Part shown: in pieces, positions 1-50,586 of the stretch
Layout of the letters: each line of letters begins with the position of its first letter
Position numbering within the stretch: the stretch's first letter is position 1
Assembly: GCA_038210275.1 (NCBI GenBank)
Contig: JBBQWV010000002.1
Coordinates: forward strand, 134,141 to 198,140
Reading direction: 5' to 3'
Length of the DNA: 64,000 nucleotides
DNA from: Candidatus Kapaibacterium sp.
GTDB lineage: Bacteria; Bacteroidota; Ignavibacteria; Palsa-1295
Notes under the pieces: model-generated
The model's input: the letters and a program-made list of their open reading frames with translations, nothing else
Database searches by the model: none
What the model was told of the DNA's origin: nothing
Position numbers and translations under genes: made by a program

Positions 1-1203
1 ATAGCTCTCGCTTTGACTTTCACTTCATGCGTGGAAAATGATAATCCGCTTCCTATACCGATGCGAGATTCGCTAAAGAGCAGACTTCTCAATTCCACTT
101 CAATTCCAAAACAATCTTTGCATCTTTTGGAAGGCGTTTATAGTGTCGAAGCAGGGAATGCAGAATTCGGCAACCAGATGATCTTAAAACAAACCGGAGA
201 TCATATTTCTCTTTTCGGCGCTAACAGCAGGTACCTTGTATTTGAAACGGGAGATGTTGATACGCTTGCAATCTTCGAAGGCTACTGGCGATTCGATGTT
301 GGCACAGAGACAGGATATGCAACACTTGATGTTGCTAAAACTTTTGACGTAAAAACTATTGATACTAATTTGCTAATAAAAGGATATTACACTGGAAATG
401 GTACAAAGAATATCAATCCCCTGCGATTGCGCTTTAAGCGGAAGTTAAAAGACACAACGAATAATTTTCTTATCCTCGATCATCACGGTGGCTTTAATGG
501 TGCGGGATTTCCATACTCGGAGAATAGCTTAAATAGTATTCGTCTTGCGCAATATGTCGGCGCGAATGGAATTGAGATCGACGTAAAACTTACTGCCGAT
601 AATATCCCTGTTCTTTTCCATGACGATAATCTTGGCACTGACTTAGTCAACGGCGAATTTGCGATCGGACCAATCGGCAACTTCACCCTTGCGCAGCTTC
701 GCGCATTATGCACTCTCAAAGACGGCGAACAAATTCCTACTTTGCAAGAAGCGCTTGATGTAATCTATAATGAAACAGAGTATAAAGCAGTCTGGCTTGA
801 TATAAAAGATGCGACAACTGTTCCATACGTCCTGCCTATTGAAATTAATTTTATCAATAAATTTAAATCCGCGGGACGTGACGTAACGATCTGGGCAGGA
901 TTATCGAGTGCCGATCACATCACAGCATATATGGCTGACTCGCTTCATACAAAAGCGACAAGCATTTGCGAGCTTCTGCCAAGTGATGTGGAGAATGCCG
1001 GTTGTATTGCATGGGGACCTCGGTGGACGGCGGGTGATCAAGTATCATCCGCGCAACCGCTTCGTGCCGAGGGAAAAAAGGTTATTTATTGGACAGTTGA
1101 TAAACCGGAATTCATCAATCCATTTTTAAATCATGGTAATCTCGACGGATTATTAACCGATCATCCGGGCACTGTTGCTTTTTATTACTATATCCGCAAT
1201 TGA
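1..1203 (+). CDS. glycerophosphodiester phosphodiesterase (GDPD) family protein, 5' end probably outside window; lipoprotein-like N-terminus
   Basis: ORF 13..1203 continues open to base 1 (IALALTFTSC lipobox-like). The GDPD core motif LDHHGGFNGAGFPYSENSLNSIRLA...GIEIDVKLTADNIPVLFHDDNL matches the HRG...PENT...E.D...T.DG..V..HD signature. Confidence 0.6.
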   Translation: MALALTFTSCVENDNPLPIPMRDSLKSRLLNSTSIPKQSLHLLEGVYSVEAGNAEFGNQMILKQTGDHISLFGANSRYLVFETGDVDTLAIFEGYWRFDVGTETGYATLDVAKTFDVKTIDTNLLIKGYYTGNGTKNINPLRLRFKRKLKDTTNNFLILDHHGGFNGAGFPYSENSLNSIRLAQYVGANGIEIDVKLTADNIPVLFHDDNLGTDLVNGEFAIGPIGNFTLAQLRALCTLKDGEQIPTLQEALDVIYNETEYKAVWLDIKDATTVPYVLPIEINFINKFKSAGRDVTIWAGLSSADHITAYMADSLHTKATSICELLPSDVENAGCIAWGPRWTAGDQVSSAQPLRAEGKKVIYWTVDKPEFINPFLNHGNLDGLLTDHPGTVAFYYYIRN

Positions 1204-1849: not shown

Positions 1850-1961
1850 GTCATTGCGAGGAGTTGCTTGCGAACGACGTGGCAATCTAAAAACTTAAAC
1901 GTTGATTCTACATTTAATATTTTAGATTGCTTCGTCGGGCTAAAGCCTTTCTCGCAATGAC
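1850..1961. repeat. palindromic MITE/REP-like element, family A copy 1 (112 nt)
   Basis: Terminal inverted repeats GTCATTGCGAG...CTCGCAATGAC with a nested inverted repeat GCAATCTAAAA...TTTTAGATTGC. Near-identical copy at 25368..25477. Sits between convergent genes. Confidence 0.8.
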
Positions 1962-3183: not shown

Positions 3184-4310
3184 TAATTCTCAGTGCCAAG
3201 TAGAATTTCAACTGGCTTTTGGTTCGGAGCCAAATTCGCAATACTCACCTGCTGCGCCATTGCCTGTGCAATGTCTCTGAATGAATGCGCTGCCTGCGTC
3301 TCCGGACCGCTAACGACGATAGGCGAACCATCATCGCTTCCGACACGAACCGATGTCTCAAGAGGTAGCTCACCCAAGAAAGGTACTCCGAATTCGGTCG
3401 CTGCTTTCGCCGCTCCGCCATGCGAAAAGATTTCTTCGCGATGATGACAAGCCGAGCAAATAAAATAACTCATGTTCTCGATGATTCCAAGAACAGGCAC
3501 GTGTACTTTCTCGAACATACGAACTGCTTTCCGTGCATCAGCAAGAGCCACATCTTGCGGAGTAGTGACAATCACTGCTCCGGTAAGAGGAATAGTTTGC
3601 ACAAGAGTAAGCTGAATATCCCCTGTTCCGGGAGGAAGATCAAAGATCAGATAATCGAGTTCACCCCAAAGCACATCCGACATAAATTGCTTCAATGCAC
3701 CTGATGCCATGGGACCGCGCCATACGACTGCGGTATTTGGATCAACGAGGAATCCAATCGACATCACCTTCACTCCGTGCGCTTCAAGAGGGATCATCAT
3801 CGCATGACCATTCACTTGTTGTGCCTCAGGTTTTGAATATTCCAAGCCGAACATTAGTGGAATGCTCGGGCCATAAATATCGGCATCAAGTAACCCGACC
3901 TTCGCCCCATCTTTTGCGAGTGCAACAGCGAGATTCGCTGCAACGGTTGACTTCCCTACTCCACCTTTGCCGGAAGCAACAGCGATGGTGTTCCGAACAC
4001 CTAAAAGTGCAGTCGGTTTATTTACCCCTTGCTGCATTGCCACGTTCGATGTCATCGCAACTTTTACATTACCTTCACCGGCAATTTTTTCTACTGTAGT
4101 CCGCGCTTCGAGTTCAAGTTTATCTTTGAGCGGGCATGAGGGTGTAGTAAGTTCAAATGTAAAAGATACTTGATCGCCTGCAATCTTTATATTCTTTATC
4201 ATCCCAAGCGAGACGACATCTTTATGAAGATCGGGGTCAATGACGGCGCGAAGAGCATCAAGCACTTCCGCTTCAGTAAGAGTAGAACTATTTTTTGAAA
4301 AGAATCCCAT
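3183..4310 (-). CDS. apbC: Fe-S cluster carrier ATPase Mrp/ApbC (N-terminal DUF59 plus ParA-type P-loop)
   Basis: Walker A SGKGGVGKSTVAANLA, CxxC near C-terminus (CSAC), N-terminal MIP18/DUF59-like domain. Adjacent to the Nfu gene. Confidence 0.85.
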   Translation of the reverse strand: MGFFSKNSSTLTEAEVLDALRAVIDPDLHKDVVSLGMIKNIKIAGDQVSFTFELTTPSCPLKDKLELEARTTVEKIAGEGNVKVAMTSNVAMQQGVNKPTALLGVRNTIAVASGKGGVGKSTVAANLAVALAKDGAKVGLLDADIYGPSIPLMFGLEYSKPEAQQVNGHAMMIPLEAHGVKVMSIGFLVDPNTAVVWRGPMASGALKQFMSDVLWGELDYLIFDLPPGTGDIQLTLVQTIPLTGAVIVTTPQDVALADARKAVRMFEKVHVPVLGIIENMSYFICSACHHREEIFSHGGAAKAATEFGVPFLGELPLETSVRVGSDDGSPIVVSGPETQAAHSFRDIAQAMAQQVSIANLAPNQKPVEILLGTEN

Positions 4311-5132: not shown

Positions 5133-6760
5133 ATGCTCAGGAATGTGGTTTTGGTCATCGCCTTCATGGTTGCAGTTCTCTCAACTGCAAGCGATCTATG
5201 TGCGCAATTATTAATCGTGCCTCCCGCTCGGTTATCGCCTGATAATTTTTTCGATGCCGAAGGAGTATCAATCGTCATCAATCCTTCCAATTCGTCTCAG
5301 ATTGCTGCGGGATCAAACGTAAATTATTATTATTTCTCGACCGACTTAGGACATTCATGGCAAGCGAATGCTTTGAATCCCACGTTCGGTGATGGTGGTG
5401 ATCCCTCGCTTACCTCCGATTCAAAAGGAAATTTCTATTATGCACATCTATCCAGCGAAGTTAATGGCGTAGGATATAATCAAGATAGGATCGTTATTCA
5501 GAAATCAACAGATGGGGGAAAAACATATTCACCCGGGACATTCACCGGACATGACCGTTCTCCAAAACAGCAATTCAAGGAATGGATCACTTGCGATAAT
5601 TCATCTTCCACGCCATACAAAGATAATCTTTATCTTTCTTGGACAGAGTTTGATTCTTATCAAAGTCATTTTCCGCAATTTGATAGCACGAGAATTCTTT
5701 TCTCGGGTTCAACCGATGCAGGCGAAACATGGTCTGATGCCGTGACTGTAAGCGATAAAGAAGGTGATACCATTGATAGCACCAACTCCGTTAATGGCTC
5801 AAGATGTATCACCGGTCCTAACGGCGAAATTTATGTTACGTGGGAAGGACCCGACGGATTGCTATTCGATAAATCAACCGACGGCGGAAAATCTTTTACA
5901 AAAGATAAACTCCTTGAGCAACTTGTGCCGGGCTGGAGGTTTGATATCAAGGGTATTTATCGCGCCAATGGATTTGCTACTCCGCTTTGTGATAACGGTA
6001 ATTCGAAACATCGCGGAAATCTTTATGTACTTTTTTCCGATAAACGCAACGGACCGGATGATTGTGATATTTTTCTGCTTCGCTCAACGAATGGCGGTGA
6101 TTCATGGAGTTCACCTGTTCGTGTGAATGACGATACGTCGCATCTCGAACAATTTTTTCCATCAGCAGCGATTGACGAAACTACCGGATTCATCTATGCA
6201 GTCTTTTATGATCGCAGGGATCATAAAGGTACGAATCTCACAGAAGTATATCTTGCCAGATCTATTGATGGGGGCAGAGTTTTCAAAATTTCAGATTACA
6301 TTCAGCTCCTTTCAATCCAAACAACAAGATTTACATCGGTGATTATACTCATATCGCTGCCCATAATACATTAGTCTATCCGACTTGGACGGACATACAT
6401 ACAAATAACGATGGAGTATCTTATTCTGAAAGTATTTGGATATGCAGAGTTATTGATACCGGCGCGTTTAATTTAGATGTCCCGACTCCGATGGATAGGA
6501 AGCAATCTTTCTCCTTACACGTCGTTCCAAATCCTGCACGATCGGAGATTCAAATCCAATTCAGTCATCCGCTCGAAAGGAATTCTTCCATTCAAATAAC
6601 CGACGTAGTAGGAAGAACTCTCGTAAACAGCATTGAAGGAGAGTACGACAATAAAGACAGAATTACTTATGATATAAGCAACCTTCCAAGCGGCATCTAC
6701 TATTGTTTAGTACAATACGGAACAGAGCACGCCATTCAAAAAATAATCGTGTCACATTAA
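5133..6760 (+). pseudogene. BNR/Asp-box repeat (sialidase-like) T9SS cargo protein, frameshifted at a G5 tract (frames 5133..6374 and about 6269..6760)
   Basis: The upstream frame carries at least four S.D.G.(T/S)(W/F) BNR motifs (STDGGKTY, STDAGETW, STDGGKSF, STNGGDSW). It reads ...ARSIDGG then runs out of frame. The other frame continues ...QSFQNFRLHSAPFNPNNKIYIGDYTHIAAHN... and ends in a T9SS C-terminal domain (GIYYCLVQYGTEHAIQKIIVSH). Joining them at GGGGG (about 6270..6274) recreates a perfect SIDGGQSF BNR motif. Confidence 0.55.
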
Positions 6761-6774
6761 GAGAATTTAAACTT

Positions 6775-6829
6775 AAAAGTCAAAGATCAAAACGTGATTT
6801 CTATTTTTGACTTTTAGCTTTTGACTTTT
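6775..6829. terminator. A/T-rich inverted repeat (AAAAGTCAAAG...CTTTGACTTTT) between convergent genes; terminator-like, overlapping the last codons of the minus-strand CDS
   Basis: About 10-bp arms with flanking A/T runs. Located between the stop of the 5133..6760 gene and the stop of 6801..7256. Confidence 0.4.
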
Positions 6830-7256
6830 GAATTCTCTTAATGCTTTTTCCCATCCGTTCTTTATATTCTTTCGGAGGGTATTCAACCTTTGCCATCTCC
6901 TTCACAAATTTCTCGGCAATATCAAGCGGCATCTGTACTACGTCCTTAAAATTAATGCAGCCCTTTTGGAATTTTGCTTTTGGCATAAGCTTTTCGAATT
7001 TCTCGCGCAAGCCGCTTCCACCAAAACCTTTTGAACTGCCATACATTACCATCGAATGGAATGACATGTGCTCCTTCACCGAGGAAAGTGCATACTTCAT
7101 GATATCGCCTTGCATATACATAAGCATTTCCTTCCCCATCATACTGCTCACGACTTCTTTAACAAGCGGGTCAGATTTTAAAATAAGCTCGCGCAATTTG
7201 GATAAGATCGCCTTGCGATCTTCGGGCAGAGAATCAAGATATTCTTTAGGTGTCAT
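6801..7256 (-). CDS. hypothetical protein, DUF1801 (YdhG-like) resemblance
   Basis: N-terminus MTPKEYLDSLPEDRKAILSKLRELI resembles DUF1801 proteins. Lys-rich C-terminus is encoded partly by the hairpin repeat. Confidence 0.35.
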   Translation of the reverse strand: MTPKEYLDSLPEDRKAILSKLRELILKSDPLVKEVVSSMMGKEMLMYMQGDIMKYALSSVKEHMSFHSMVMYGSSKGFGGSGLREKFEKLMPKAKFQKGCINFKDVVQMPLDIAEKFVKEMAKVEYPPKEYKERMGKSIKRIQKSKAKSQK

Positions 7257-7318
7257 GCGTTTGAAAAAATATGAAATGTGAAAGCTGACTATGGGACTCG
7301 ATATTTTTATTTACAATT

Positions 7319-7723
7319 TTATTCTTCACTTGCAGTTTCAGCTTCTTGCCGAGGGTTTCCATAAGAAGGTCTCTTCTCATTCCTCAAAGTAGTCCAGTCT
7401 TCTTCTCGATAGGCTTTTAAGGTATAATCTATCTGTTCATCAAAGGCAGCAGGGCTATGAGAGAATATGAGTGGGCGGATATCAACGCTCCACCCTTCCA
7501 AATGTTTCGCATTATAAAGAGCTTCGCGCTCTTCGGCAGTCTCGCAAAAAAAAACTGCAATGCCTCCGGGCTTGCCAATAAAATGGTCGTGGAAGATAAC
7601 CAGAGGCAGAGTCCTATCGCCGACAAATTCATTGAATATCCGGTTTACTTCCGAAGGCAGCATAACCACCGGCGCTAAGGCATAGGCGAGGAAGCATCGC
7701 GGTTTTTTAATTGGTGGTATCAT
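7319..7723 (-). CDS. hypothetical protein
   Basis: 134-aa ORF. Its start overlaps the stop of the upstream T9SS gene by 4 nt (translational coupling). No recognisable motif. Confidence 0.4.
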   Translation of the reverse strand: MIPPIKKPRCFLAYALAPVVMLPSEVNRIFNEFVGDRTLPLVIFHDHFIGKPGGIAVFFCETAEEREALYNAKHLEGWSVDIRPLIFSHSPAAFDEQIDYTLKAYREEDWTTLRNEKRPSYGNPRQEAETASEE

Positions 7724-8766
7724 TCTACAATTACCTTCTTCGTCACCACTCCCTCTGCCGTTTCCATTCGAACATAATACATACCCGGCGGAAGCTTAAA
7801 AGAGAAATCGCGATGCAGATCATTCATCATACCATCGAAGACCGTCATCACATCTTTGCCGAGTTCGTTGAAGACGTTGAGGTGGAGATATCCCGTGTAT
7901 TGAGACGAATATGAGACATAGAGCAATCCAATTGCAGGATTAGGGTGAATATAAAGCACTGCTGGCAGTTGCAAAGTCTTAATGACGTTACTCTTAAGTT
8001 TAGGATTAAAAACAAAACTTATTGGAATGGTAATCATAGAATCAATGCTATGATTTTTTATGTGGGTATGGAGCACCCCAAGAAACCTCATAGTATCTAG
8101 GAATACTGATGCTGATGTAACAAAGTGGAATCTCAACGTTTTAAAAGATAAGGGATTCACTATTGTATTTTGAAGAATAATTGAATCTGTACTAGCAATC
8201 ACGGATAATTTGGATTCTGTACCTACATCTAAAGAAAATTTATCGCAAAATAGAGGATCATTAATATTGTTAAAAACTTGTACCTCAATAATTGGTGAAG
8301 GACTCGCAGGAAGGTAATTCAATCCATTCGAATCTGGACGAAAAAATAATCCGTTATTTTTGTGCACCCTCAACTTAACTGTGCTATCGAAATAACTTTC
8401 TACATCGAAATTTCTGACTTCATTCATAGAAAGTTTACAATCACTACAGCTAGGGCTGTAAACATGTGTCCAAGTAAATGTAAAGGTGTCTACATATTTT
8501 CCTACAACCGTTGGATTTACATTAAATGGCGAAAATAGATTCCAACCAAATGGCGCCTGAGGGAATAAAGGATAATGGTTTGTTCTATACACTTCTATAA
8601 ATTGGTAGCTACAGGTATCCAAACCTCTAGAACAAGACTGATAAACAATCTTAATATATTGAGGGGTATACAGGATCGAATCTGAACCTACTGGTACGCG
8701 AATGACTTGAGAAGTGCTCATCCTTACCATACTAAGAACCATCAAAACACAAACCAGAACTTTCAT
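7720..8766 (-). CDS. secreted protein with T9SS C-terminal sorting domain
   Basis: Signal peptide MKVLVCVLMVLSMVRMSTSQ. C-terminus PGMYYVRMETAEGVVTKKVIVE is typical of Por_Secre_tail. Confidence 0.6.
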   Translation of the reverse strand: MKVLVCVLMVLSMVRMSTSQVIRVPVGSDSILYTPQYIKIVYQSCSRGLDTCSYQFIEVYRTNHYPLFPQAPFGWNLFSPFNVNPTVVGKYVDTFTFTWTHVYSPSCSDCKLSMNEVRNFDVESYFDSTVKLRVHKNNGLFFRPDSNGLNYLPASPSPIIEVQVFNNINDPLFCDKFSLDVGTESKLSVIASTDSIILQNTIVNPLSFKTLRFHFVTSASVFLDTMRFLGVLHTHIKNHSIDSMITIPISFVFNPKLKSNVIKTLQLPAVLYIHPNPAIGLLYVSYSSQYTGYLHLNVFNELGKDVMTVFDGMMNDLHRDFSFKLPPGMYYVRMETAEGVVTKKVIVE

Positions 8767-8887: not shown

Positions 8888-11848
8888 TTACCCCACCTGT
8901 ATCTTCAATTTCTCCATCTGCACCCTAAAGCTCTCGAGTTTTTCCTTTTCTTTGATAATGATATGCTCCGGAGCACGGCTGACGAAGTTGTCATCGCTGA
9001 GTTTTGCGTTTAGACTTTCGTATTGCTTTACAATGCGCTCAAGCTCTTTGCGGAGACGGTCTTTTTCTTTCTTGGTATCTTCTTCGCTTTGCGCTTCCTG
9101 TTTAATAAAGATCTGGCCTCTTCCGGCAAGTAATTCAGCAGCATACTCTTTTGAGGACAGCTCTCTCATTGTGTCATTGCGAGGAATCTGCGCAGCAGAC
9201 GACGCGGCAATCTCAAAATTCTCGGTACTATTAGACATTTTAGATTGCTTCGCTGCGCTCGCAATGACGTCCCCAAATGTGTCTTGTTCGATTATGAGTG
9301 ATGAAGCTTTACATATCTTTTCAATGATATTTCGCGAAGCTTCTGTGAGAATTAAATCTTCTTGAGTCTTCAAACGAATAATAAACTCTGCCGACTTGCT
9401 CGGAACAAGTTTTGCATTCGCACGCAAGAGTCTTGCGGCTTCAATAATTTTTTGTATAAAAGCGAATTCCTCTTCCGCTTCATCATCTATCTTTCCTTCA
9501 TCGGCTGTGATGTAGTCATCTCTGCCAATAAGCATATTTTCCGGATTACCCGTTAAGCCATGCCAAAGCTCTTCGGTGACAAATGGCATGATTGGATGGA
9601 TCATTCGGAGAATGCCTTCGAGAATTTCCACAGCAAGCGGAGTTGATTCGGGCTGTAGCTTTACGATCTCCAAATACCAATCGCAATAATCTTTCCAGAT
9701 GAAATCGTAAAGGTATTTTGTAACGTCATTAATGAGATAGGCGTCGAAAGCTTTCTTCACATCTCGCGCAGTTCTATTCGCACGAGAGAGAATCCATTTA
9801 TCAGCGAGGGTAGACGGTGGTTTTGCAGAGAAGCCAGCCTTCTCCAGTGGGACGGACTTTAGTCCATCCGTCTCACGGACTGAAGTCCGTGCCACTGAAT
9901 TGTTATATTCTGTATCTTCAGATTCAAACTTCGGCTCGGGATGAGTTGATTGATATTCATCACGCTTCATTAATATAAAGCGTGTTGCATTATATAATTT
10001 ATTTGCAAAATTCCTGCCTTGTTCACAGCTTTCTTCTCCGAAACGAACATCTTGTCCGAGCGGTGCCAGATAGAGCAATGTAAAACGAACAGCATCCGTA
10101 CCATATTTACGAACGAGATCAATCGGATCGGGCGAGTTGCCGAGCGACTTACTCATTTTCCTTCCCTGCTGGTCACGCAAGATATTATGGAAATACACAT
10201 CGGTGAAAGGAATCAGATCTTCTAACTTTTCACGTTTCGAACCATCGGGCATCTCCATACCTTGCATGAATTCGATGCCGCCCATGATCATTCGCGCAAC
10301 CCAGAAGAAAATAATATCGGGCGCAGTTGAAAGCAGATTGCCGGGATAAAATAATTGCAGATCTTTTGTATTCTCTGGCCAACCGAATGTCGCAAAGGGC
10401 CAGAGCCACGATGAGAACCATGTATCAACGACATCGGGATCTTGACGGAGTTCGCCTTTGTATCCAGCGGCATCGGCTTTAGCTCTTGCTTCGGCATCAT
10501 TACGTCCGACAAATATTTCTCCATCAACTCCATACCAAGCTGGAATGCGCTGCCCCCACCAAAGCTGGCGTGAGATACACCAATCACGAATCCCTGTCAT
10601 CCAATGACGATAGGTATTGATCCAGCGTTCTGGATGAAAATGAATAAGTCCATCTTCAACAACTTTTAGTGCAGGCTCGGCAAGCGGCTTCATCGAAACG
10701 AACCACTGATCAGATAGATATGGCTCGATCATCTCGCCGCCGCGTTCAGAATAGCCTACAGAATGAGTATATTCATCAATCTTCTCAATAAGCCCCATCT
10801 CTTCCAATTCCGCAACGATCTTCTTTCGTGCAACAAAGCGGTCCAGTCCTGCAAATTTTCCACCGAGTTCGTTGATATGGGCTTTTGTATCCATGACATT
10901 GATTTGTGGCAAATCATGTCGCTTTCCGATCTCGAAATCGTTTGGGTCATGGGCAGGAGTAATCTTCACACATCCTGTTCCAAATTCTTTATCGACGTAG
11001 TCATCGGCAATGATCGGGATTTCCCTATCCATAAATGGAAGCTGAAGTTTTCTGCCGATGAGTTTTATGTATCGTTCATCAGTAGGATTGACAGCAACGG
11101 CAACGTCGCCAAGCATTGTCTCAGGGCGCGTTGTTGCAATGACAATAAATTCTGGTTCGCCGGATTTCCTATCGATAAGCGGATAACGGAAATGATAAAG
11201 CTTGCCTTTCGTCTCTTTGTAATTTACTTCTTCGTCGCTAAGAGCAGACTGTGCAACAGGGGACCAATTAATGATACGCTTGCCTTTATAGATCAGCCCT
11301 TTTTCATAAAGTCTGACAAATGCTTCAACGACAGCTTTCTCATAGCTCGCATCCATCGTGAAAGTGAAACGGCGCCAATCTGGTGAGCAGCCGAGAGCAC
11401 GAAGTTGCTTCTCTATAAAATCAGAATGCTCATGCTTCCACTTCCAAACTTCGTCAATAAATTTTTCACGACCCAAATCGTGACGAGTCTTTCCCTCTTC
11501 TTTTAATTTCTTCTCAACTTTCGTCTGCGTTGCAATTCCCGCATGATCGGTGCCCGGCATCCACAGGGCTTCATGCCCAAGCATCCGGTGATAGCGGATA
11601 TAGGTATCCTGAATGGCATTATTGAGCGCATGACCCATGTGCAGAATGCCCGTCACATTCGGCGGCGGCATACAGACTACGAATGGCGGCTTGTCATTGG
11701 CGCGGCGTCCGGTGGGGTCCTGCGGTACTTCATCGGGGCGATTGGCTTCAAAAAGCTTCTCCGCTTCCCAACGCTCGTACCACTGCTGTTCAACATCCTG
11801 CGGCGCATACGCCTTCGGTAATTCCCTTTTCTCTATTTCTGACATCAA
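8888..11848 (-). CDS. valS: valine--tRNA ligase (986 aa)
   Basis: Class I HIGH (ILHMGHALNN) and KMSKS motifs. Editing and anticodon-binding regions align with E. coli ValRS (…NKLYNATRFILM…DKWIL…CDWYLE). C-terminal coiled coil. Confidence 0.95.
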   Translation of the reverse strand: MMSEIEKRELPKAYAPQDVEQQWYERWEAEKLFEANRPDEVPQDPTGRRANDKPPFVVCMPPPNVTGILHMGHALNNAIQDTYIRYHRMLGHEALWMPGTDHAGIATQTKVEKKLKEEGKTRHDLGREKFIDEVWKWKHEHSDFIEKQLRALGCSPDWRRFTFTMDASYEKAVVEAFVRLYEKGLIYKGKRIINWSPVAQSALSDEEVNYKETKGKLYHFRYPLIDRKSGEPEFIVIATTRPETMLGDVAVAVNPTDERYIKLIGRKLQLPFMDREIPIIADDYVDKEFGTGCVKITPAHDPNDFEIGKRHDLPQINVMDTKAHINELGGKFAGLDRFVARKKIVAELEEMGLIEKIDEYTHSVGYSERGGEMIEPYLSDQWFVSMKPLAEPALKVVEDGLIHFHPERWINTYRHWMTGIRDWCISRQLWWGQRIPAWYGVDGEIFVGRNDAEARAKADAAGYKGELRQDPDVVDTWFSSWLWPFATFGWPENTKDLQLFYPGNLLSTAPDIIFFWVARMIMGGIEFMQGMEMPDGSKREKLEDLIPFTDVYFHNILRDQQGRKMSKSLGNSPDPIDLVRKYGTDAVRFTLLYLAPLGQDVRFGEESCEQGRNFANKLYNATRFILMKRDEYQSTHPEPKFESEDTEYNNSVARTSVRETDGLKSVPLEKAGFSAKPPSTLADKWILSRANRTARDVKKAFDAYLINDVTKYLYDFIWKDYCDWYLEIVKLQPESTPLAVEILEGILRMIHPIMPFVTEELWHGLTGNPENMLIGRDDYITADEGKIDDEAEEEFAFIQKIIEAARLLRANAKLVPSKSAEFIIRLKTQEDLILTEASRNIIEKICKASSLIIEQDTFGDVIASAAKQSKMSNSTENFEIAASSAAQIPRNDTMRELSSKEYAAELLAGRGQIFIKQEAQSEEDTKKEKDRLRKELERIVKQYESLNAKLSDDNFVSRAPEHIIIKEKEKLESFRVQMEKLKIQVG
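9173..9268. repeat. family A palindromic element, copy 2, 96 nt, inside the valS ORF and in frame
   Basis: GTCATTGCGAGG...GGCAATCTCAAAA...TTTTAGATTGC...CTCGCAATGAC. Length 96 is 32 codons with no stop in the valS frame. Encodes ...DVIASAAKQSKMSNSTENFEIAASSAAQIPRNDTM... just before the ValRS C-terminal coiled coil. Confidence 0.75.
9845..9897. repeat. family B palindromic element, copy 1, inside the valS ORF
   Basis: CAGTGGGACGGACTTTAGTCC..ACGGACTGAAGTCCGTGCCACTG. Matches the B copies flanking lexA. Encodes ...SVARTSVRETDGLKSVPLEKAGF... within a segment absent from E. coli ValRS at the equivalent position. Confidence 0.65.
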
Positions 11849-15748: not shown

Positions 15749-17506
15749 TTATTCTGGAATAATATTCTTACTCGAACATACGTCACACTTCCCGCATTTA
15801 CCTCCACCTTGTTTCTCGCCAAAATAATTCAAGATCATCGCAGCGCGGCATCTCCAATTTGTTGCATAGTTTTGGACTTCACGCAGTTTGCCGAGAGTAT
15901 GATCAAATGAAGTGTGTAGTTTTTCTAAGGGAAGAATTATTTCTTTCGTATGAATTCGATGTCCTAAAAATTTAAGACTATAAATTTTTGAATTGCTTGC
16001 TGCGAATGAAGATAATTTATGGGTAAGAATTTCGTTCGCCTCCAAAAGTCTGATCGCTTTATTAAAAGTAGTTTTATCAATGGAAAGCGTTTCGATTACC
16101 TCATCAGAATTAAAGGAGAATTCCATGCCAACACCTGACTCTTCTTCCAATAAATCAAATCGTTTAAGTAATTGAACTCCTATTCCGTTTCTTGAACGAT
16201 AGATATACTCTTCTCTTTTCTGTTTTGGGATGAGAAATTTAACTGAAGACGTTCTAATTTGCGAAGTATTTTTATCAATCGAGATCAGATTTGCTTCAGC
16301 AAGCAACTCTAAGCCGCGAGTTACTGAGCAGGATAGATCGGGGATAGAATTCAGGATCTGGCCTCGAGTAAAAGTAACAGTTCCTTTATAAAATGAACCG
16401 ACTTTATTCGATACCATTTCATTGATAGCTTCATAAAGAATGAGAAGTTCTTCTTCTGTAGGAAAATTTCGCTGCAATAAAAATTCATGAGTTCGCTCAT
16501 CGCCGGAGTTATACATCAGAATTGCAAATGCTTTGTTGCCATCACGTCCAGCTCTGCCTGATTCCTGATAGTATGCTTCAAGAGTCGCAGGAAGATCGTA
16601 ATGAATGACACATCGAACGTCGGGCTTATCAATTCCCATTCCAAATGCGCTTGTCGCGACAATTATCTGCACTTCACCTGAAAGAAATCCGTCCTGAACT
16701 CTCAGGCGCACTTCATTTCCCATCCCAGCATGATAACTCTCTGCACTGAACCCTAATTGATGAAGATTTAAAGCAAGCTTATCGGCTCTACTACGAGAAG
16801 AGGTATACACGATAATGCTTCCGCCAATAGTATGAGCAAGATCAATAAGCCGGACATCTTTCTCGCATTCTCCGAGAACTGCATAGCAAATATTTGGCCG
16901 CTCGAATCCGGTGACAATTTCAAGTGGCTTATTCAGTTCAAGCTGTTCTTTAATATCTGTCCGAACATCGGGCGTTGCCGTTGCAGTAAGAGCAATAACC
17001 GGCGGACGACCTTCAACGAATGAATGATAAAAATCCGGAATACGGCGATAGCTTTTTCGAAAATCATGCCCCCATTCACTGATGCAATGCGCTTCGTCAA
17101 TTGCAATAAATGAGATATGTAGTTCAGCAATTAATGACTTAAAAGATTCTGTTTCCAAGCGTTCAGGAGAAACATAGAGAAGTTTTAATTCACCAGATCG
17201 TGCTTTATCTAAAACTGCTTTGGAGTCTTCATACGATTGCGAGCTATTCATCGCAGCGGCAGCGATGTTCCGCAAATTTAGCTTATCAACCTGATCTTTC
17301 ATTAATGAAATCAGTGGGGAGATGATCAGAGCAGTACCATCCATGAGCACAGCAGGTAGCTGGAAACAAAGCGATTTTCCTCCGCCCGTTGGCATGACTA
17401 CAAAAATATCTCTTCCACTAATAAGAGCTGCAATAGCCTCTTCCTGCATCGGACGAAATGCAGTGATACCAAAAAATTCTTGAAGTGATTGAAGTAGTTG
17501 GCTCAA
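15749..17506 (-). CDS. recQ: ATP-dependent DNA helicase RecQ
   Basis: FRPMQEEAI...PTGGGKSLCFQLPA, DEAH box IAIDEAHCISEWGHDFR, RecQ-Ct zinc motif, C-terminal CGKCDVC. Confidence 0.9.
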   Translation of the reverse strand: MSQLLQSLQEFFGITAFRPMQEEAIAALISGRDIFVVMPTGGGKSLCFQLPAVLMDGTALIISPLISLMKDQVDKLNLRNIAAAAMNSSQSYEDSKAVLDKARSGELKLLYVSPERLETESFKSLIAELHISFIAIDEAHCISEWGHDFRKSYRRIPDFYHSFVEGRPPVIALTATATPDVRTDIKEQLELNKPLEIVTGFERPNICYAVLGECEKDVRLIDLAHTIGGSIIVYTSSRSRADKLALNLHQLGFSAESYHAGMGNEVRLRVQDGFLSGEVQIIVATSAFGMGIDKPDVRCVIHYDLPATLEAYYQESGRAGRDGNKAFAILMYNSGDERTHEFLLQRNFPTEEELLILYEAINEMVSNKVGSFYKGTVTFTRGQILNSIPDLSCSVTRGLELLAEANLISIDKNTSQIRTSSVKFLIPKQKREEYIYRSRNGIGVQLLKRFDLLEEESGVGMEFSFNSDEVIETLSIDKTTFNKAIRLLEANEILTHKLSSFAASNSKIYSLKFLGHRIHTKEIILPLEKLHTSFDHTLGKLREVQNYATNWRCRAAMILNYFGEKQGGGKCGKCDVCSSKNIIPE

Positions 17507-22783: not shown

Positions 22784-23962
22784 CTACTGCAAAAGTATCT
22801 TTTTTACCACTACCGAATTTGTGGTTACAAATTTGGCATAATATATTCCGGGCGCTTGCTTCGAAAGATCGATGGTGAAATTTGACGAATGCGGGTTTGT
22901 AAGTTCTAATACTTTCTCCCCAAGAATGTTTGCGATGGTAACTTGGGATGTATTTTCGGGTGCACCATATATAGTTATTACTCCATTGGTCGGATTTGGA
23001 AAAAGCGAAATATTCAACGGGTTTGCAATATATTTTTGCTTCACATCCAGCCCAGCAAGTGGGTGTTTCCAGATACCATCTTTGTCAGTACCTGCAAAGA
23101 AATAGGAGGTGCTTACTCCAAATGTTGTGACACTAATTGAATCTGTCAGACCAGTGTTAAATTTCATCCAACTTGTACCACTATCGGAAGAAAGAAAAAT
23201 TCCGGCATCTGTCCCTGCAAAAAGATTCTTGCCTATCACCGCCAAGGCATAGATAGTGTGAACCTCATTAAAATCTCCTAACATACTGCATACTTTCCAA
23301 GTTATTCCATTGTCCGTTGAATGACAAACTTGATTACTCCTTCCCACAAAAAGATCGGATCCATTTGAGATAATACATTTAAAAATCCCTATGAAGCCAA
23401 GACGTTTCCAACTCGAACCAAAATCGGTCGAAACCAATATACTATCAACCGAAGATGTAGTTGCGAATAGACTCGTACCATTTACAGCAAAACGATTAAA
23501 ATCATTCGTCTGAAAATGAAAATCTAACTCAGTCCAACTCATGCCACTGTCGGATGAAACAAAACTATCATATCCTCCAGCAATAATTTTTGTTCCGATG
23601 ACTGCAAGACAGTGTATATTCCTCATATATTCAACTGTAGTTGTCCAAGTTTTTCCGGTGTCAGATGAGAGGAAGAGTCCTTTCGTTGTGCCTGTAATGA
23701 TAGTATTTCCAATTTTTGTAAAACAGAAGATAGGAATGGTATCAAAAAAACTGTTCCCTATGTCCTTCCAACTTACACCGCTATTGGTTGAAAGCAAAAT
23801 TCCATGATTGCTCGTCCCGGCATAGATATTATCACCATCGACAAAAAAGCAAGTCTCCCAAGCATTATGTGGCGCAGTTGTCTGAACCCATTGGCTCCTA
23901 ACATTTGAAGCCATGAACGTGATCTGGAGAAGGAATGCGATGAGTATTAATTTCTGTTTCAT
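22784..23962 (-). CDS. BNR-repeat (sortilin/Ycf48-like beta-propeller) protein with T9SS C-terminal sorting domain
   Basis: Six S.D.G.(S/T)W motifs (STNSGVSWK, SSDTGKTWT, SSDSGMSWT, STDFGSSWK, STDNGITWK, SSDSGTSWM). C-terminus PGIYYAKFVTTNSVVVKKILLQ. Probable start at MKQKLILIAF (signal peptide). Confidence 0.65.
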   Translation of the reverse strand: MKQKLILIAFLLQITFMASNVRSQWVQTTAPHNAWETCFFVDGDNIYAGTSNHGILLSTNSGVSWKDIGNSFFDTIPIFCFTKIGNTIITGTTKGLFLSSDTGKTWTTTVEYMRNIHCLAVIGTKIIAGGYDSFVSSDSGMSWTELDFHFQTNDFNRFAVNGTSLFATTSSVDSILVSTDFGSSWKRLGFIGIFKCIISNGSDLFVGRSNQVCHSTDNGITWKVCSMLGDFNEVHTIYALAVIGKNLFAGTDAGIFLSSDSGTSWMKFNTGLTDSISVTTFGVSTSYFFAGTDKDGIWKHPLAGLDVKQKYIANPLNISLFPNPTNGVITIYGAPENTSQVTIANILGEKVLELTNPHSSNFTIDLSKQAPGIYYAKFVTTNSVVVKKILLQ

Positions 23963-24065
23963 AATTTTTAATCCCGAATCATTTTTATTGTTATAATATA
24001 GGGATTGATTTGGTAATGTTCTTGAGCCTATAAAGAACTTATTAAATCTGAAATAGTTACACTTT

Positions 24066-24091
24066 ACGGACGGACTAAAGTCCGTCCCACT
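24066..24091. repeat. family B palindromic element, half copy
   Basis: ACGGACGGACTAAAGTCCGTCCCACT, in the divergent promoter region between the BNR gene and lexA. Confidence 0.6.
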
Positions 24092-24212
24092 CACAATACC
24101 AAACTTCGAGAGTCACGCAAAACTTCGACTTATCTCCCAACCCTAAAAATTTCGGATTTTACGCGGAGGCGAAAAAGATTGCTTATATTAGTACGTGCTC
24201 TTATGGGCACCT

Positions 24213-24238
24213 ATGCTATGAGAAATGCCGCTCATAGC
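24213..24238 (+). promoter_or_regulatory. inverted repeat TGCTATGAG-N8-CTCATAGCA about 50 bp upstream of lexA; candidate LexA operator (autoregulation)
   Basis: Perfect 9-bp inverted repeat with an 8-bp spacer, located where SOS boxes are usually found. The motif differs from the E. coli (CTGT-N8-ACAG) and Cheo-box consensus, so the assignment is inference only. Confidence 0.3.
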
Positions 24239-24284
24239 ACATAATAAGGCATCTAAATGATTGATCTATAGAAAGATAACGACG

Positions 24285-24959
24285 ATGTACGCAGAACCAA
24301 AATACGATACTATCGCAATCCGTGATTCCCTTCCGCTCCAACAGGCGAGGGTGCTCGACTATGTCGAGGAGTTCATTGACATCTCCGGCTACCCCCCGAC
24401 CATAGCCGAAATAACCGAATTTCTGGGAGTCTCTTCGACCTTCGGAGTTCGCAAACATATCGAAGCGCTGACCAAAAAAGGCTTCATCGTTCGCGGCGGT
24501 CCCGGACTCTCGCGTTCGATCATGGTGGCGAATAATCACCGCGCAAACTCGGTACCGATCGTCGGCAGAGTCACAGCCGGTGCGCCCATCCTTGCCGTTG
24601 AGCATATCGAAGGCTGGCTGGCATTTCAGCCTATCAAAGATCCACGCAAAATGTTTGCGCTTAAAGTGCAGGGCGAAAGCATGAAGGATAAAGGCATCAT
24701 GGATGGCGACTACGTGATCTGCCGCCAACAGGATGAAGCATCGAACGGCGAGATCATCGTTGCCTTGCTTGATGACTCGGCAACAGTAAAAACTTTCCGC
24801 AAGTACGGCAAGCGTTACGAACTCGAACCGGCGAACGAGCTATTCAAGCCCATCCCCATTACCGAAGACAGCGGCTTCAAAGTGCTTGGGAAAGTTACGA
24901 GCATCTATCGTATGATAGATGATAGGAAGCCGGGGCTATTGCAATTGAAGTATAACTAA
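24285..24959 (+). CDS. lexA: LexA repressor (S24 peptidase)
   Basis: N-terminal winged helix (LPLQQARVLDYVEEFIDISGYPPTIAEI), cleavage region and S24 catalytic domain with VQGESMKD (Ser nucleophile) and the downstream Lys motif. ATG at 24285, 24 nt downstream of the TTG of ORF 24261, is the more plausible start. Confidence 0.85.
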   Translation: MYAEPKYDTIAIRDSLPLQQARVLDYVEEFIDISGYPPTIAEITEFLGVSSTFGVRKHIEALTKKGFIVRGGPGLSRSIMVANNHRANSVPIVGRVTAGAPILAVEHIEGWLAFQPIKDPRKMFALKVQGESMKDKGIMDGDYVICRQQDEASNGEIIVALLDDSATVKTFRKYGKRYELEPANELFKPIPITEDSGFKVLGKVTSIYRMIDDRKPGLLQLKYN

Positions 24960-24965
24960 TTTCTG

Positions 24966-25015
24966 TAGTGGGGCGGACTTCAGTCCGTCCGAACGGACTA
25001 AAGTCCGTTCCACTA
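24966..25015. repeat. family B palindromic element, full copy, 6 nt downstream of the lexA stop
   Basis: TAGTGGGGCGGACTTCAGTCCGTCCGAACGGACTAAAGTCCGTCCCACTA. The two ACGGACT.AAGTCCGT hairpin units lie within a larger palindrome. Confidence 0.7.
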
Positions 25016-25058
25016 CTACCAGAAATAACAAAACAATTTTAGAATAATCAGAACAACC

Positions 25059-25340
25059 ATGCAAACATTAACCACTACACTTCAAGCGCCGCGCAGAGCA
25101 GAAGTTTATACTGCACCAATGCCGCAGCAGAAGGAAATACAAGTTGCCGAAGAGCAGGAGCTATCAGTTCGGCAGATCAGCCATTATATCGGCAAAACAA
25201 AATTCTGCGAGACGGGATACAGCACGACCACCTACGGCAGGATCGGCTTCACCAAAGTCGAAGCTGAGCACGTAACAGCAGATACGCTATTGCAAGCGAG
25301 ATTGGATATATTGTGTGATAAGCTTCGCGCACGCTATTAA
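25059..25340 (+). CDS. hypothetical small protein (93 aa) co-oriented downstream of lexA
   Basis: ORF between repeat B3 and repeat A3. No recognisable domain. Coding status unverified. Confidence 0.3.
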   Translation: MQTLTTTLQAPRRAEVYTAPMPQQKEIQVAEEQELSVRQISHYIGKTKFCETGYSTTTYGRIGFTKVEAEHVTADTLLQARLDILCDKLRARY

Positions 25341-25367
25341 CGTGCATCGTGAAGACTTTAAAACAAT

Positions 25368-25477
25368 GTCATCGCGAAGAGGGCGCAGCCAGACGTGGCG
25401 ATCTAAAAATTTGAGGGCGTGTGTAACGATTAAGATTTTAGATTGCCACGAAAGGCTAAAGCCTTTCTCGCAATGAC
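25368..25477. repeat. family A palindromic element, copy 3 (110 nt)
   Basis: Termini identical to copy 1 and a shared GGC(A/G)ATCTAAAAA...ATTTTAGATTGC core. Between convergent genes. Confidence 0.8.
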
Positions 25478-25520
25478 ATTCATAAAAGAATATTCATCCA
25501 TCCGCCTTCATCCTTACCCG

Positions 25521-26108
25521 TTAGTGTTTATGTACGGTGCTAATATAATGATACTGTGGCTCCCAGTCGTCACTTGCCGATGGCAACAGATCGAAGAGAT
25601 GCCAGATGGAGCAGTAATCATCTCCGGGACCGAAGAAATCTTTCGTAACGTGCGTGATCGTGCCATCCGCTTCTTTTCTGAATATCGAAACGCCGGGCAT
25701 CGGATCGTCTTTTTCATTTGCAAATCCCATGTCGCGTTTGAAGGTTGTGCCTTCAGTTGAATACATTCTGAAATTCCATCCGCGCTCCATCGCAAATTTT
25801 CTCTGTATCTCATAGTTATCCGGTGAAGTGAGAACAAATGCCATTCGGCTTTCGAGATGCTTCGTAAAACCGATAAATCCATCAGCCCAAAGTGTACAGT
25901 AGCGGCATGATCTTCCCATGTTATGCACGAGCATCAGTTCGTTCGATGAGCCGAACATCTCCGAGAGCATTGTCTTCTCGCCGGATGATCCTGTGAAGGA
26001 ATAATCTTTTACCGTTTCAGCAGGAATTTTACGGCGCACTTCTGCGACCTTTGCGCGAAGCTTCATTAAGTCATCACTAAGTTGGAAGAGTTCTTGTTCG
26101 GCTGTCAT
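25521..26108 (-). CDS. DUF899-family thioredoxin-like protein
   Basis: GRSCRYCTLWADG CxxC region and the overall 195-aa architecture are typical of DUF899. Confidence 0.5.
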   Translation of the reverse strand: MTAEQELFQLSDDLMKLRAKVAEVRRKIPAETVKDYSFTGSSGEKTMLSEMFGSSNELMLVHNMGRSCRYCTLWADGFIGFTKHLESRMAFVLTSPDNYEIQRKFAMERGWNFRMYSTEGTTFKRDMGFANEKDDPMPGVSIFRKEADGTITHVTKDFFGPGDDYCSIWHLFDLLPSASDDWEPQYHYISTVHKH

Positions 26109-47033: not shown

Positions 47034-47056
47034 TGTTTGTTTTGTGTTACTTTCAT

Positions 47057-47094
47057 GTCATCGCGAGGAGTCCGCCGCGGCGAATTGCAATGAC
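47057..47094. repeat. family A-related short hairpin (terminal repeats only) between nuoE and nuoF
   Basis: GTCATCGCGAGGAGTCCGCCGCGGCGAATTGCAATGAC shares both A-family termini but lacks the internal region. Confidence 0.5.
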
Positions 47095-47104
47095 ACTATA
47101 AAAT

Positions 47105-50032: not shown

Positions 50033-50105
50033 CACGTCAGGAGGGAATTGAACCCCCAACCAACGGTTTTGGAGACCGCTACTCTACCAATTGAGCTACT
50101 GACGT
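50033..50105 (-). tRNA. tRNA-Trp (anticodon CCA)
   Basis: Minus-strand sequence ...AGCTCAATTGGTAGAGT.GCGGTCTCCAAAACCGT..GGGGGTTCAATTCCC... Cloverleaf with CCA anticodon. No encoded 3' CCA. Confidence 0.8.
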
Positions 50106-50142
50106 GTCTGAAAGCTGACAGCAACCGCTGGCAGCCTACAGC

Positions 50143-50292
50143 TTATTTGGTCTCTTTGTGGATCTGACGCTTTCTGCAGCGCGAGCAAAACTTCTTGTAC
50201 TCCACACGTCCTGATTGCTTGCGCTTGTTTTTGGTCGCAGAGTAGTTACGCTCTTTGCACTCAGTACATTCTAACGTTATAATGTCTCTCAT
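50143..50292 (-). CDS. rpmG: 50S ribosomal protein L33 (zinc-ribbon type; below the 60-aa ORF-track cutoff)
   Basis: Translation [49 protein letters not shown] closely resembles Bacillus-type L33 ([24 protein letters not shown]...KKYCPRC..HT.HKE.K). AGGA Shine-Dalgarno sequence 8 nt upstream. Confidence 0.85.
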
Positions 50293-50580: not shown

Positions 50581-50586
50581 GACTTG

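What the first reader, a model, noticed from the sequence alone, without database searches (positions are those of the whole stretch)
24066..25477. The lexA locus is bracketed by palindromic elements and carries a candidate non-canonical SOS box and a downstream orphan small ORF
lexA (24285..24959) has three notable neighbours:
- a B half-element about 190 bp upstream, in the divergent promoter region;
- a full B element 6 nt after its stop codon;
- about 100 nt further downstream, a co-oriented 93-aa ORF (25059..25340), followed by an A element.

About 50 bp upstream of lexA there is a perfect 9-bp inverted repeat, TGCTATGAG-N8-CTCATAGCA (24213..24238). It is positioned like an autoregulatory LexA operator but matches neither the E. 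coli nor the Cheo-box consensus. If it is real, it would define the SOS box of this lineage and allow regulon prediction. The downstream small ORF could be an SOS-induced effector, by analogy with sulA/yneA-type inhibitors, which are often lexA-adjacent.
Basis: partly seen in the sequence, partly recalled or inferred. Interest (0 to 1): 0.55.

Follow-up and report, generated by a model that had tools for sequence, protein, structure and literature searches.

The report
Kapabacterial lexA operon: operator, leader hairpin, partner gene
The palindrome proposed as the LexA binding site is more likely a folded RNA hairpin in the lexA leader. The probable binding site is a different, strictly conserved palindrome 19 bp upstream, and the small gene after lexA is a real, lineage-wide partner gene of unknown function.

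Summary
The window comes from a Candidatus Kapaibacterium-like genome.

**The proposed SOS box is not supported.**
- In 10 distinct related lexA leaders the arms of that repeat change sequence but stay complementary. Five of nine pairs show compensatory changes.
- That pattern fits an RNA hairpin, not a protein-binding site.

**A better operator candidate lies just upstream.**
- GTGCTCTTATGGGCAC (24195..24210; RTGC-N8-GCAC) is invariant in its half-sites upstream of lexA in about 20 distinct loci.
- It always starts 5 nt after the -10 hexamer.
- It is the only such site in the 64-kb window.
- I could not test it at recA, uvrA or other SOS genes.

**The 93-aa ORF (25059..25340) is a real gene.**
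- It lies directly downstream of lexA wherever the downstream sequence is available.
- dN/dS is about 0.06-0.28.
- The family has about 100 members, with no Pfam, NCBIfam, PDB, PHROGs or PADLOC match.
- The predicted structure is disordered apart from a conserved C-terminal helix.

**The A and B elements are incidental.** They are dispersed palindromic repeats, variable between relatives, and not part of the conserved lexA architecture.

Overall this is a standard autoregulated lexA operon with an apparently undescribed operator motif and an uncharacterised partner protein.

The parts
24067..24091 (.). Single B-type palindromic unit (GGACGGACT-AA-AGTCCGTCC) in the divergent intergenic region. 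It is a dispersed repeat and is not conserved at this place in relatives.
   Evidence: -14.7 kcal/mol; absent from relatives' upstream regions
24184..24189 (+). Inferred -10 hexamer TATATT of the lexA promoter. The -35 is weak in this clade. More distant relatives have TTGACA-N17-TAnnTT in the same register.
   Evidence: Box-anchored comparison of about 20 loci. Inferred: no transcription start data, and the simple consensus scan does not call it.
24195..24210 (.). Candidate LexA operator GTGCTCTTATGGGCAC (RTGC-N8-GCAC), starting 5 nt after the -10 and so overlapping the expected transcription start.
   Evidence: Only match in the 64-kb window (0.36 expected). One per locus, always upstream of lexA. 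Half-sites are invariant and never covary.
24214..24239 (+). It is restricted to the window's subclade.
   Evidence: Covariation: 5 of 9 pairs changed on both sides, 88% of cells paired against 19-40% in slid controls. RNA fold -12.5 kcal/mol. RNAalifold recovers it.
24225..24240 (.). Weak second box-like site ATGCCGCTCATAGCAC (ATGC-N8-GCAC), 30 bp from the first and overlapping the loop and 3' arm of the hairpin. Possible auxiliary operator.
   Evidence: The left half degenerates in relatives (TTGC, CTGC, TAGC, AAGC) and the right half is GCAC or GCAT. Uncertain.
24248..24252 (+). GGCAT, complementary to loop bases ATGCC (24225..24229). A possible pseudoknot partner, weakly supported.
   Evidence: one covarying pair, three mismatches; the 4-bp core is invariant, with no covariation.
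24260..24278 (+). Conserved non-coding leader segment ATTGATCTATAGAAAGATA just upstream of the start codon. The TTG at 24261 is out of frame with lexA in L001 and L002, so conservation is at the nucleotide level.
   Evidence: nearly invariant columns; frame check by reading the sequences.
24285..24959 (+). lexA, canonical LexA repressor (224 aa; Ala97-Gly98, Ser132, Lys169), with a conserved 13-aa C-terminal tail beyond the TIGR00498 model.
24965..25016 (.). Full B element (two palindromic units nested in a 24-bp-arm hairpin) between lexA and the small ORF, with no T-run. It is strain-specific.
   Evidence: -39.5 kcal/mol, z = -8.3. No terminator call. Relatives have no element, another hairpin, or an A element here.
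25059..25340 (+). Conserved lexA-linked small protein gene (93 aa). The N-terminal part is predicted disordered; the conserved C-terminal helix ends ...LQARLDILCDKLRARY.
25366..25477 (.). A element: a MITE-like palindromic repeat of about 112 nt with terminal inverted repeats, lying between the convergent small ORF and the DUF899 gene.
   Evidence: -57.4 kcal/mol, z = -8.9
25521..26108 (-). Convergent DUF899 (thioredoxin-like) gene. It is a frequent syntenic neighbour and marks the end of the lexA operon.

Best explanation
The locus is an autoregulated two-gene SOS operon, lexA plus a small protein gene, in a Kapabacteria genome.

1. Transcription starts from a promoter whose -10 is TATATT (24184..24189).
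2. A LexA dimer binds the palindrome GTGCTCTTATGGGCAC (24195..24210). This site starts 5 nt after the -10 and covers the transcription start, so binding blocks initiation.
3. After DNA damage, RecA-stimulated self-cleavage of LexA at Ala97-Gly98 derepresses both genes.
4. It forms a 9-bp stem-loop about 20 nt into the leader RNA. It most likely tunes mRNA stability or translation, and it exists only in the window's subclade.
5. The 93-aa protein is therefore SOS-induced by construction. Its conserved C-terminal amphipathic helix and disordered N-terminus suggest it works by binding a partner. That partner could be LexA or RecA (as with DdrR, gp7 or DinI) or a division protein (as with SulA).
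6. The A and B palindromic elements are dispersed REP/MITE-like repeats that happened to land in the intergenic spaces.

Shown here: gene identities, conservation, synteny, covariation and purifying selection. Inferred: LexA binding to the box, the transcription start, co-transcription, and any function of the hairpin or the small protein.
For: **Operator**
- RTGC-N8-GCAC occurs once in the window, in the lexA promoter.
- It occurs once per locus in 8-kb loci from 13 GTDB species, and in further metagenome loci, always upstream of lexA.
- Its register to the -10 is fixed. Distant relatives show TTGACA-N17-TAnnTT-N5-box.
- The half-sites are invariant while the spacer varies, as expected for a protein site.
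- An unrelated LexA locus (L015, 35% identity) lacks it.

**Hairpin**
- 10 distinct sequences give 5 of 9 pairs with changes on both sides, including AU/GC/UA/GU at a single pair.
- 88% of cells are paired, against 19-40% when partners are slid. 0 of 500 shuffles reach the observed covariation score.

**Small gene**
- It is present after lexA in 12 of 12 GTDB loci that have downstream DNA, and in all contexts fetched through distant members.
- dN/dS is 0.06-0.28.
- The family has 107 members, 41 representatives among 1.84 billion proteins.
- AlphaFold predicts a helix at residues 73-92, with pLDDT of about 89 for residues 81-90.

**LexA identity:**
Against: - No LexA-binding experiment or transcription start data exist.
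- The one non-lexA gene of known kind carrying the box, comM in L018, lacks it in L002.
- The other non-lexA hit (L017) precedes a secreted protein gene, which is not an SOS-type function.
- Extra GGGCACCTAT half-sites, and 16-bp phased GCAC repeats in relatives, are not explained by a single dimer site.
- The window's own -35 is poor, and the simple promoter scan does not call this promoter.
- No terminator separates lexA from the small ORF, but a very stable B hairpin does. Co-transcription in this strain is therefore assumed.
Confidence: 0.7

Rival explanations
1. One reading: TGCTATGAG-N8-CTCATAGCA (24214..24239) is the autoregulatory LexA operator of this lineage.
For: It is a perfect palindrome about 50 bp upstream of lexA and is unlikely by chance. 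Its outer TGC...GCA bases are invariant in the subclade.
Against: - The arm sequences differ between close relatives (TATGAG, TGCGAA, AGCCGA, TTTGGG and others) while staying complementary.
- The element is absent from lexA promoters of more distant Kapabacteria, which still carry RTGC-N8-GCAC.
- LexA DNA-binding domains in these relatives are highly similar, so a changing operator sequence is not expected.
Confidence: 0.04
2. The hairpin region doubles as a second, weaker LexA operator: ATGC-N8-GCAC at 24225..24240, 30 bp from the first. This would match the tandem 16-bp units (CTRC-N8-GCAC) that follow the main box in distant relatives, so that two or three LexA dimers occupy the promoter-proximal leader.
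For: - Box-like matches at +30 in the window, L016, L020 and L035.
- A conserved GCAC/GCAT at the 3' end of the stem and TGCC in the loop.
- Phased GCAC repeats in L011, L012, L029 and L030.
Against: - The left half-site degenerates (TTGC, CTGC, TAGC, AAGC).
- The site falls below the cut-off (9 bits) used in the scan with the weight matrix built from the primary boxes.
- It does not explain the covariation of the 5' arm with the 3' arm.
Confidence: 0.2
3. The GTGC-N8-GCAC element is not a LexA site. It would instead be the binding site of another regulator, or a conserved promoter-proximal or 5'-terminal RNA element shared by several genes.
For: - The same -10 plus box module precedes two non-lexA genes in metagenome contigs L017 and L018.
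- Lone GGGCACCTAT half-sites occur upstream of lexA in L002, L003, L005-L007 and L033.
- As RNA, the box can fold into a small 5' hairpin.
Against: - The stem positions never covary, and the half-sites are invariant across 58-100% LexA identity, which fits a protein site.
- The dyad-N8-dyad geometry is that of E. coli CTGT-N8-ACAG (PMC8565304).
- Strict linkage to lexA, an autoregulated gene in essentially all studied bacteria (established knowledge).
- The metagenome pattern forced the -10 and spacer, so the module similarity is partly imposed by the query.
Confidence: 0.12
4. The 24214..24239 palindrome is a remnant of a small mobile palindromic element, like the A and B families, with no function of its own.
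For: The genome is rich in palindromic repeats, and these have even inserted into coding sequence.
Against: - There is no other copy in the window, even allowing 3 mismatches.
- It sits at an orthologous position with conserved flanks in 10 distinct relatives.
- Pairing is maintained through multiple independent double substitutions.
Confidence: 0.08

Closest known systems
E. coli-type LexA autoregulation through an SOS box (CTGT-N8-ACAG)
   Same: - Canonical LexA with an HTH domain, an S24 domain, an Ala-Gly site and a Ser/Lys dyad.
- A 16-bp palindrome made of 4-bp half-sites separated by 8 bp.
- The site overlaps the core promoter of lexA itself.
   Different: The half-site is GTGC/GCAC rather than CTGT/ACAG. 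It matches neither the Cheo box (GAAC-N4-GTTC) nor the motifs reported for neighbouring lineages. Those are GGA-N5-TCC and CTAA-N5-TTAG in Bacteroidetes (PMC8565304) and the direct repeat TTACACATATTTTWTACATA in Balneolaeota (PMC7739468).
Fibrobacter succinogenes LexA box TGCNC-N4-GTGCA (Mazon et al. 2004, recalled from memory; not retrievable here)
   Same: If my recollection is right, both read TGC-N8-GCA with the same spacing. Fibrobacteres and Kapabacteria both belong to the FCB group, so the motif could be inherited.
   Different: The Kapabacteria site has an extra conserved outer base pair (G...C) and a T-rich/ATGR spacer. The comparison rests on memory only: no paper in the library gave the motif.
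Pseudomonas lexA-sulA operon; Acinetobacter umuDAb-ddrR; phage GIL01 gp7 (small proteins encoded with, or acting on, the SOS repressor)
   Same: A small gene tightly linked to the SOS repressor gene and expected to be co-induced. DdrR (PMC11332147) and gp7 (PMC4551915) are short, lineage-restricted proteins that act by binding the repressor.
   Different: There is no sequence similarity to SulA, DinI, DdrR, gp7 or any Pfam, NCBIfam, PDB, PHROGs or PADLOC entry. The function is untested.
REP/BIME and MITE-like extragenic palindromes; Rickettsia palindromic elements (RPE)
   Same: The A and B elements are short, highly structured, dispersed palindromic repeats in intergenic regions. Two copies sit in frame inside valS, as RPEs do in Rickettsia genes.
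   Different: The sequence families are different and specific to this lineage. No transposase or RAYT-type partner was looked for.

Membership tests
LexA repressor (TIGR00498) | N-terminal LexA winged-helix DNA-binding domain plus C-terminal S24 peptidase domain | tested here: met
   PF01726 1.1e-14, PF00717 9.1e-31, TIGR00498 192 bits against a cut-off of 111
LexA repressor (TIGR00498) | Ala-Gly cleavage site and Ser/Lys catalytic dyad | tested here: met
   VTA97-G98AP, GES132M, TVK169TF, read from the translation
LexA repressor (TIGR00498) | RecA-stimulated self-cleavage and binding to its own promoter | not testable with these tools
   Needs biochemistry
SOS box (LexA operator): candidate RTGC-N8-GCAC at 24195..24210 | Palindromic motif conserved in sequence upstream of lexA orthologues, overlapping the promoter | tested here: met
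   About 20 distinct loci, fixed 5-nt distance from the -10
SOS box (LexA operator): candidate RTGC-N8-GCAC at 24195..24210 | The same motif upstream of other SOS genes (recA, uvrA, dinB/umuDC, imuAB) | tested here: inconclusive
   - No such genes are in the DNA held.
- recQ-like and mutS2 genes in the window have no box.
- The box precedes comM in L018 but not in L002.
SOS box (LexA operator): candidate RTGC-N8-GCAC at 24195..24210 | Specific binding by the cognate LexA | not testable with these tools
   EMSA or ChIP needed
   The arms vary and covary. The element is absent outside the closest subclade.
Known structured RNA families (Rfam 15), including riboswitch pseudoknots | Match to a covariance model | tested here: not met
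   No hit at 24190..24290 even at E <= 5. The gathering-threshold scan finds only tRNAs.
SulA / DinI / YneA-type SOS effectors | Homology to the family profile | tested here: not met
   No Pfam or NCBIfam hit for the 93-aa protein. No PDB hit with the family profile at E <= 5. No hit in PHROGs or PADLOC.
SulA / DinI / YneA-type SOS effectors | SOS-dependent induction and inhibition of division, or modulation of RecA | not testable with these tools
   Only operon linkage to lexA is shown
Intrinsic terminator (for the B element after lexA and the A element after the small ORF) | GC-rich hairpin followed by a T-run | tested here: not met
   0 terminator-like sites in 23900..25600. The hairpins are very stable but lack a T-run.

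The most novel reading that the evidence does not exclude
Kapabacteria have their own SOS circuit design, with three parts:
- a previously undescribed LexA operator (RTGC-N8-GCAC);
- a lineage-wide, always co-encoded small protein that is a new SOS component acting directly on LexA or RecA, as a co-repressor or cleavage modulator in the manner of DdrR or gp7, possibly docking on the conserved LexA C-terminal tail;
- in one subclade, a structured leader RNA (a hairpin, possibly an H-type pseudoknot with an A-rich third loop) that adds post-transcriptional control of the repressor.
Probability: 0.25. Interest if true: 0.65.

Novelty: new variant of a known kind. Interest (0 to 1): 0.45.

Why it matters
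- LexA-binding motifs differ sharply between phyla, and each newly defined motif opens regulon prediction for a whole lineage. A defined Kapabacteria operator would allow that for a group known only from metagenomes. It would also help trace motif evolution across the Fibrobacteres-Chlorobi-Bacteroidetes group, where Bacteroidetes use non-canonical LexA proteins and Balneolaeota use a direct repeat (PMC8565304, PMC7739468).
- The strictly lexA-linked small protein is a concrete candidate for a new SOS effector or repressor partner.
- The case also carries a methodological caution. The most eye-catching perfect palindrome near lexA was not the operator, and only comparison with relatives separated an RNA stem (covarying) from a protein site (invariant).

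Tried and rejected
1. **Literature.** Six searches and several look-ups found no description of a Kapabacteria or Ignavibacteria LexA motif. None gave the text of the Fibrobacter motif. The Fibrobacter comparison therefore stays a recollection.
2. **Metagenome scan.** The -10 plus box pattern returned only three loci. One is lexA. The other two carry the module before other genes (comM-like; a secreted protein). The comM link is not conserved, so it is not used as regulon evidence.
3. **Other sites in the window.** A weight-matrix and regex scan of the window and all loci found none convincing.
4. **recA.** It was sought by tblastn in all DNA held and not found.
5. **Pseudoknot.** The pairing of loop ATGCC with GGCAT looked attractive in four sequences. 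With ten, only the invariant 3-4 bp core holds and the covarying position fails in about half. It is kept only as a possibility.
6. **TTG start at 24261.** Rejected as the lexA start because it is out of frame with lexA in L001 and L002.
7. **Structure prediction of the small protein.** Mean pLDDT was only 60, so no fold search was run.
8. **Known families.** Rfam, PDB, PHROGs and PADLOC gave nothing.
9. **Sigma-54 promoter reading of GGGCAC...TGC.** Rejected because the spacing is wrong.
Full report
**Origin and observation**

LexA-based retrieval from GTDB genomes places the window in Candidatus Kapaibacterium (Kapabacteria). The closest loci share 77-80% LexA identity.

lexA at 24285..24959 is a canonical LexA:
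- TIGR00498 at 6.8e-57, with LexA_DNA_bind and Peptidase_S24 domains;
- Ala97-Gly98, Ser132 and Lys169 present.

Three corrections apply:
- The 9-bp inverted repeat is at 24214..24239, one base off.
- The upstream 'half' B element is a complete single hairpin unit.
- The A element spans about 25366..25477.

The repeat is unlikely to be chance. However, perfect 9-bp inverted repeats are about nine times enriched across the whole window (27 against 3.1 in shuffles). A perfect palindrome is therefore not in itself remarkable in this genome.

**The operator**

I lined up the lexA upstream regions of 13 GTDB loci, and later of further metagenome loci.
- The pattern GTGC-N8-GCAC occurs once in the 64-kb window, with 0.36 expected.
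- It occurs once in each of 11 loci, always before lexA.
- Allowing RTGC brings in L008, L009 and L024.
- Loci reached through distant small-ORF homologues carry it too.

Anchoring on the box shows a fixed geometry:
- Distant relatives have a textbook TTGACA-N17-TAnnTT promoter, then exactly 5 nt, then the box.
- The window's clade keeps TATATT-N5-box, with a weaker -35.
- The box therefore covers the expected transcription start, which is a classic repressor position.

The half-sites are invariant over 58-100% LexA identity, the 8-bp spacer drifts (T-rich/ATGR), and no pair covaries. That is the signature of a protein-binding site.

The dyad-N8-dyad layout equals that of E. coli CTGT-N8-ACAG (PMC8565304), with different half-sites. 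It differs from:
- the Bacteroidetes motifs GGA-N5-TCC and CTAA-N5-TTAG (PMC8565304);
- the Balneolaeota direct repeat (PMC7739468).

From memory it resembles the Fibrobacter succinogenes box TGCNC-N4-GTGCA. I could not retrieve that paper, so this is a lead and not a test.

**Limits of the operator call**

- I could not examine recA, uvrA or polymerase genes of Kapabacteria.
- The window's recQ-like and mutS2 genes have no site.
- A metagenome scan with the -10 plus box pattern gave three loci: one lexA, one upstream of a comM/yifB-family gene, and one upstream of a secreted protein gene.
- comM in L002 lacks the box, so this is not conserved regulon evidence.
- Relatives also show lone GGGCACCTAT half-sites upstream, and GCAC repeats phased at 16 bp downstream of the main box.
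- The window clade has a weak second box-like site at +30 (24225..24240).
- These may be auxiliary LexA sites. They are unexplained by a single-dimer model.

In ten distinct sequences of the window's subclade, the arms differ in sequence but remain complementary (alignments A3 and A5).
- Five of nine pairs carry changes on both sides. One pair shows AU, GC, UA and GU.
- 88% of cells are paired, against 19-40% when the 3' partners are slid.
- No shuffle in 500 reaches the observed covariation score.
- RNAalifold recovers the stem.
- Outside this subclade the element is absent, and the leader is short or different.

It fits a stem-loop in the lexA 5' leader, beginning about 20 nt after the inferred start (-12.5 kcal/mol).

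A possible pseudoknot pairs loop ATGCC with GGCAT at 24248..24252, with an A-rich connecting loop. It looked promising in the first sequences. With ten, only an invariant 3-4 bp core remains, so it stays speculative. No Rfam family matches.

A further leader segment, ATTGATCTATAGAAAGATA (24260..24278), is almost invariant. It is non-coding, because the TTG inside it is out of frame with lexA in L001 and L002.

**The small ORF**

- tblastn finds a homologue directly after lexA, on the same strand, in all 12 GTDB loci with downstream sequence.
- A profile search finds 107 proteins. All are unnamed and without Pfam domains. Those with organism labels are from Kapabacteria or Bacteroidota MAGs.
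- An exhaustive HMM search of 1.84 billion representatives finds only 41, essentially all 73-145 aa.
- Contexts fetched through both close and distant members always show lexA immediately upstream.
- In L032 the gene is present, but the assembly carries a frameshift and an A element lies between it and lexA.
- Nei-Gojobori dN/dS is 0.06-0.28.
- Conservation concentrates in ...DFGTTTxGxVTFRRV...D..LQxRLxxLCxxLRA(K/R)Y at the C-terminus.
- AlphaFold2 gives a confident helix only for residues 73-92 (mean pLDDT 60).
- There is no match to Pfam, NCBIfam, PDB, PHROGs or PADLOC.

It is thus a genuine, lineage-restricted gene whose expression is tied to lexA. What it does is open. It could be a partner-binding modulator of LexA or RecA, or a division inhibitor, by analogy with DdrR (PMC11332147), gp7 (PMC4551915) or Pseudomonas sulA. 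None of these is homologous.

**A and B elements**

Both are dispersed, very stable palindromic repeats (z = -8.3 and -8.9).
- The window holds three B sites and four A sites. Relatives carry copies as well.
- At the lexA/small-ORF junction, relatives have nothing (L002, L013, L020), a different perfect hairpin (L001, L014) or an A element (L032).
- The upstream B unit is not seen in relatives.
- None has a T-run, and the scan calls no terminator.

They are therefore not part of the conserved lexA control region. A stable intercistronic hairpin could still shift the lexA to small-protein expression ratio in this strain, in the way REP elements do in E. coli (established knowledge, untested here).

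**Verdict**

This is a conventional autoregulated lexA operon.

Confidence by component:
- about 0.75 that RTGC-N8-GCAC is the operator;
- about 0.8 that the palindrome acts as an RNA stem;
- about 0.95 that the small ORF is a real gene, and about 0.6 that it is co-induced with lexA;
- low for any specific function of the small protein.

Noticed in passing
window 8888..11848 (-), elements at 9849..9896 and 9173..9268: The valS ORF (986 aa) is intact, yet it contains one B element and one A element in frame. The B element encodes ...VARTSVRETDGLKSVP.... Aligned to T. thermophilus ValRS (1gax), the query has insertions at residues about 639-669 and about 824-918, which is where the elements lie. 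This looks like Rickettsia-RPE-style insertion of palindromic repeats into an essential gene.
   Followed up: partly
window 1850..1961, 9173..9268, 25366..25477, about 47055..47095; also L019, L023, L028, L030-L032: The A element is a MITE-like unit of about 100-115 nt, bounded by the terminal inverted repeats GTCATTGCGAG...CTCGCAATGAC. It is shared across Kapabacteria genomes. It recurs just downstream of the small ORF in L019 and L028, and lies between lexA and the small ORF in L032.
   Followed up: partly
L003/L005/L007 about 3760..3790; L017 about 5365..5390; L018 about 8065..8090 (-): The motif TGGGGAAAAGTGGGGAAATT(C/A)AT is conserved upstream of lexA in one clade. It also lies 60-110 nt downstream of the box in the two non-lexA loci. 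There is no Rfam match, and its meaning is unknown.
   Followed up: partly
L002, L003, L005, L006, L007, L033/L034, about 60 nt upstream of the main box: A second promoter-like copy, TTTAATATTACGGGCACCTAT, carries only the right half of the box. In distant relatives (L010-L012, L029, L030) GCAC or GTAC recurs at 16-bp phasing after the main box. These could be auxiliary LexA half-sites.
   Followed up: partly
window 24921..24956 (LexA residues 213-224): Kapabacteria LexA proteins carry a conserved tail of about 13 aa beyond the TIGR00498 model. It reads DDRKPGLLQLKYN here and DEKRPGIFQLKFH in L029. It could be a docking site for a partner protein.
   Followed up: no
L001 4700..4740, L014 about 335..375: A different perfect 13-bp-stem hairpin, GGTAGGCGCAGGC-TTTA-GCCTGCGCCTACC, occupies the lexA/small-ORF intergenic space where the window has the B element. 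These appear to be independent insertions of palindromes at the same junction.
   Followed up: no
L018 8170..8210 (-) and 6350..7981 (-): In a related metagenome contig the same -10 plus GTGC-N8-GCAC module lies about 270 nt upstream of a comM/yifB-family gene, which is 73% identical to the L002 orthologue. The L002 orthologue has no such site.
   Followed up: yes
window 50033..50916 (-); 51854..56760 (-); 15749..17506 (-); 58234..60735 (-): The window also holds a cluster of five tRNA genes, two tandem YfhO-family membrane protein paralogues, a RecQ-like helicase and a MutS2/Smr gene. The two DNA-metabolism genes have no LexA-box-like site.
   Followed up: no
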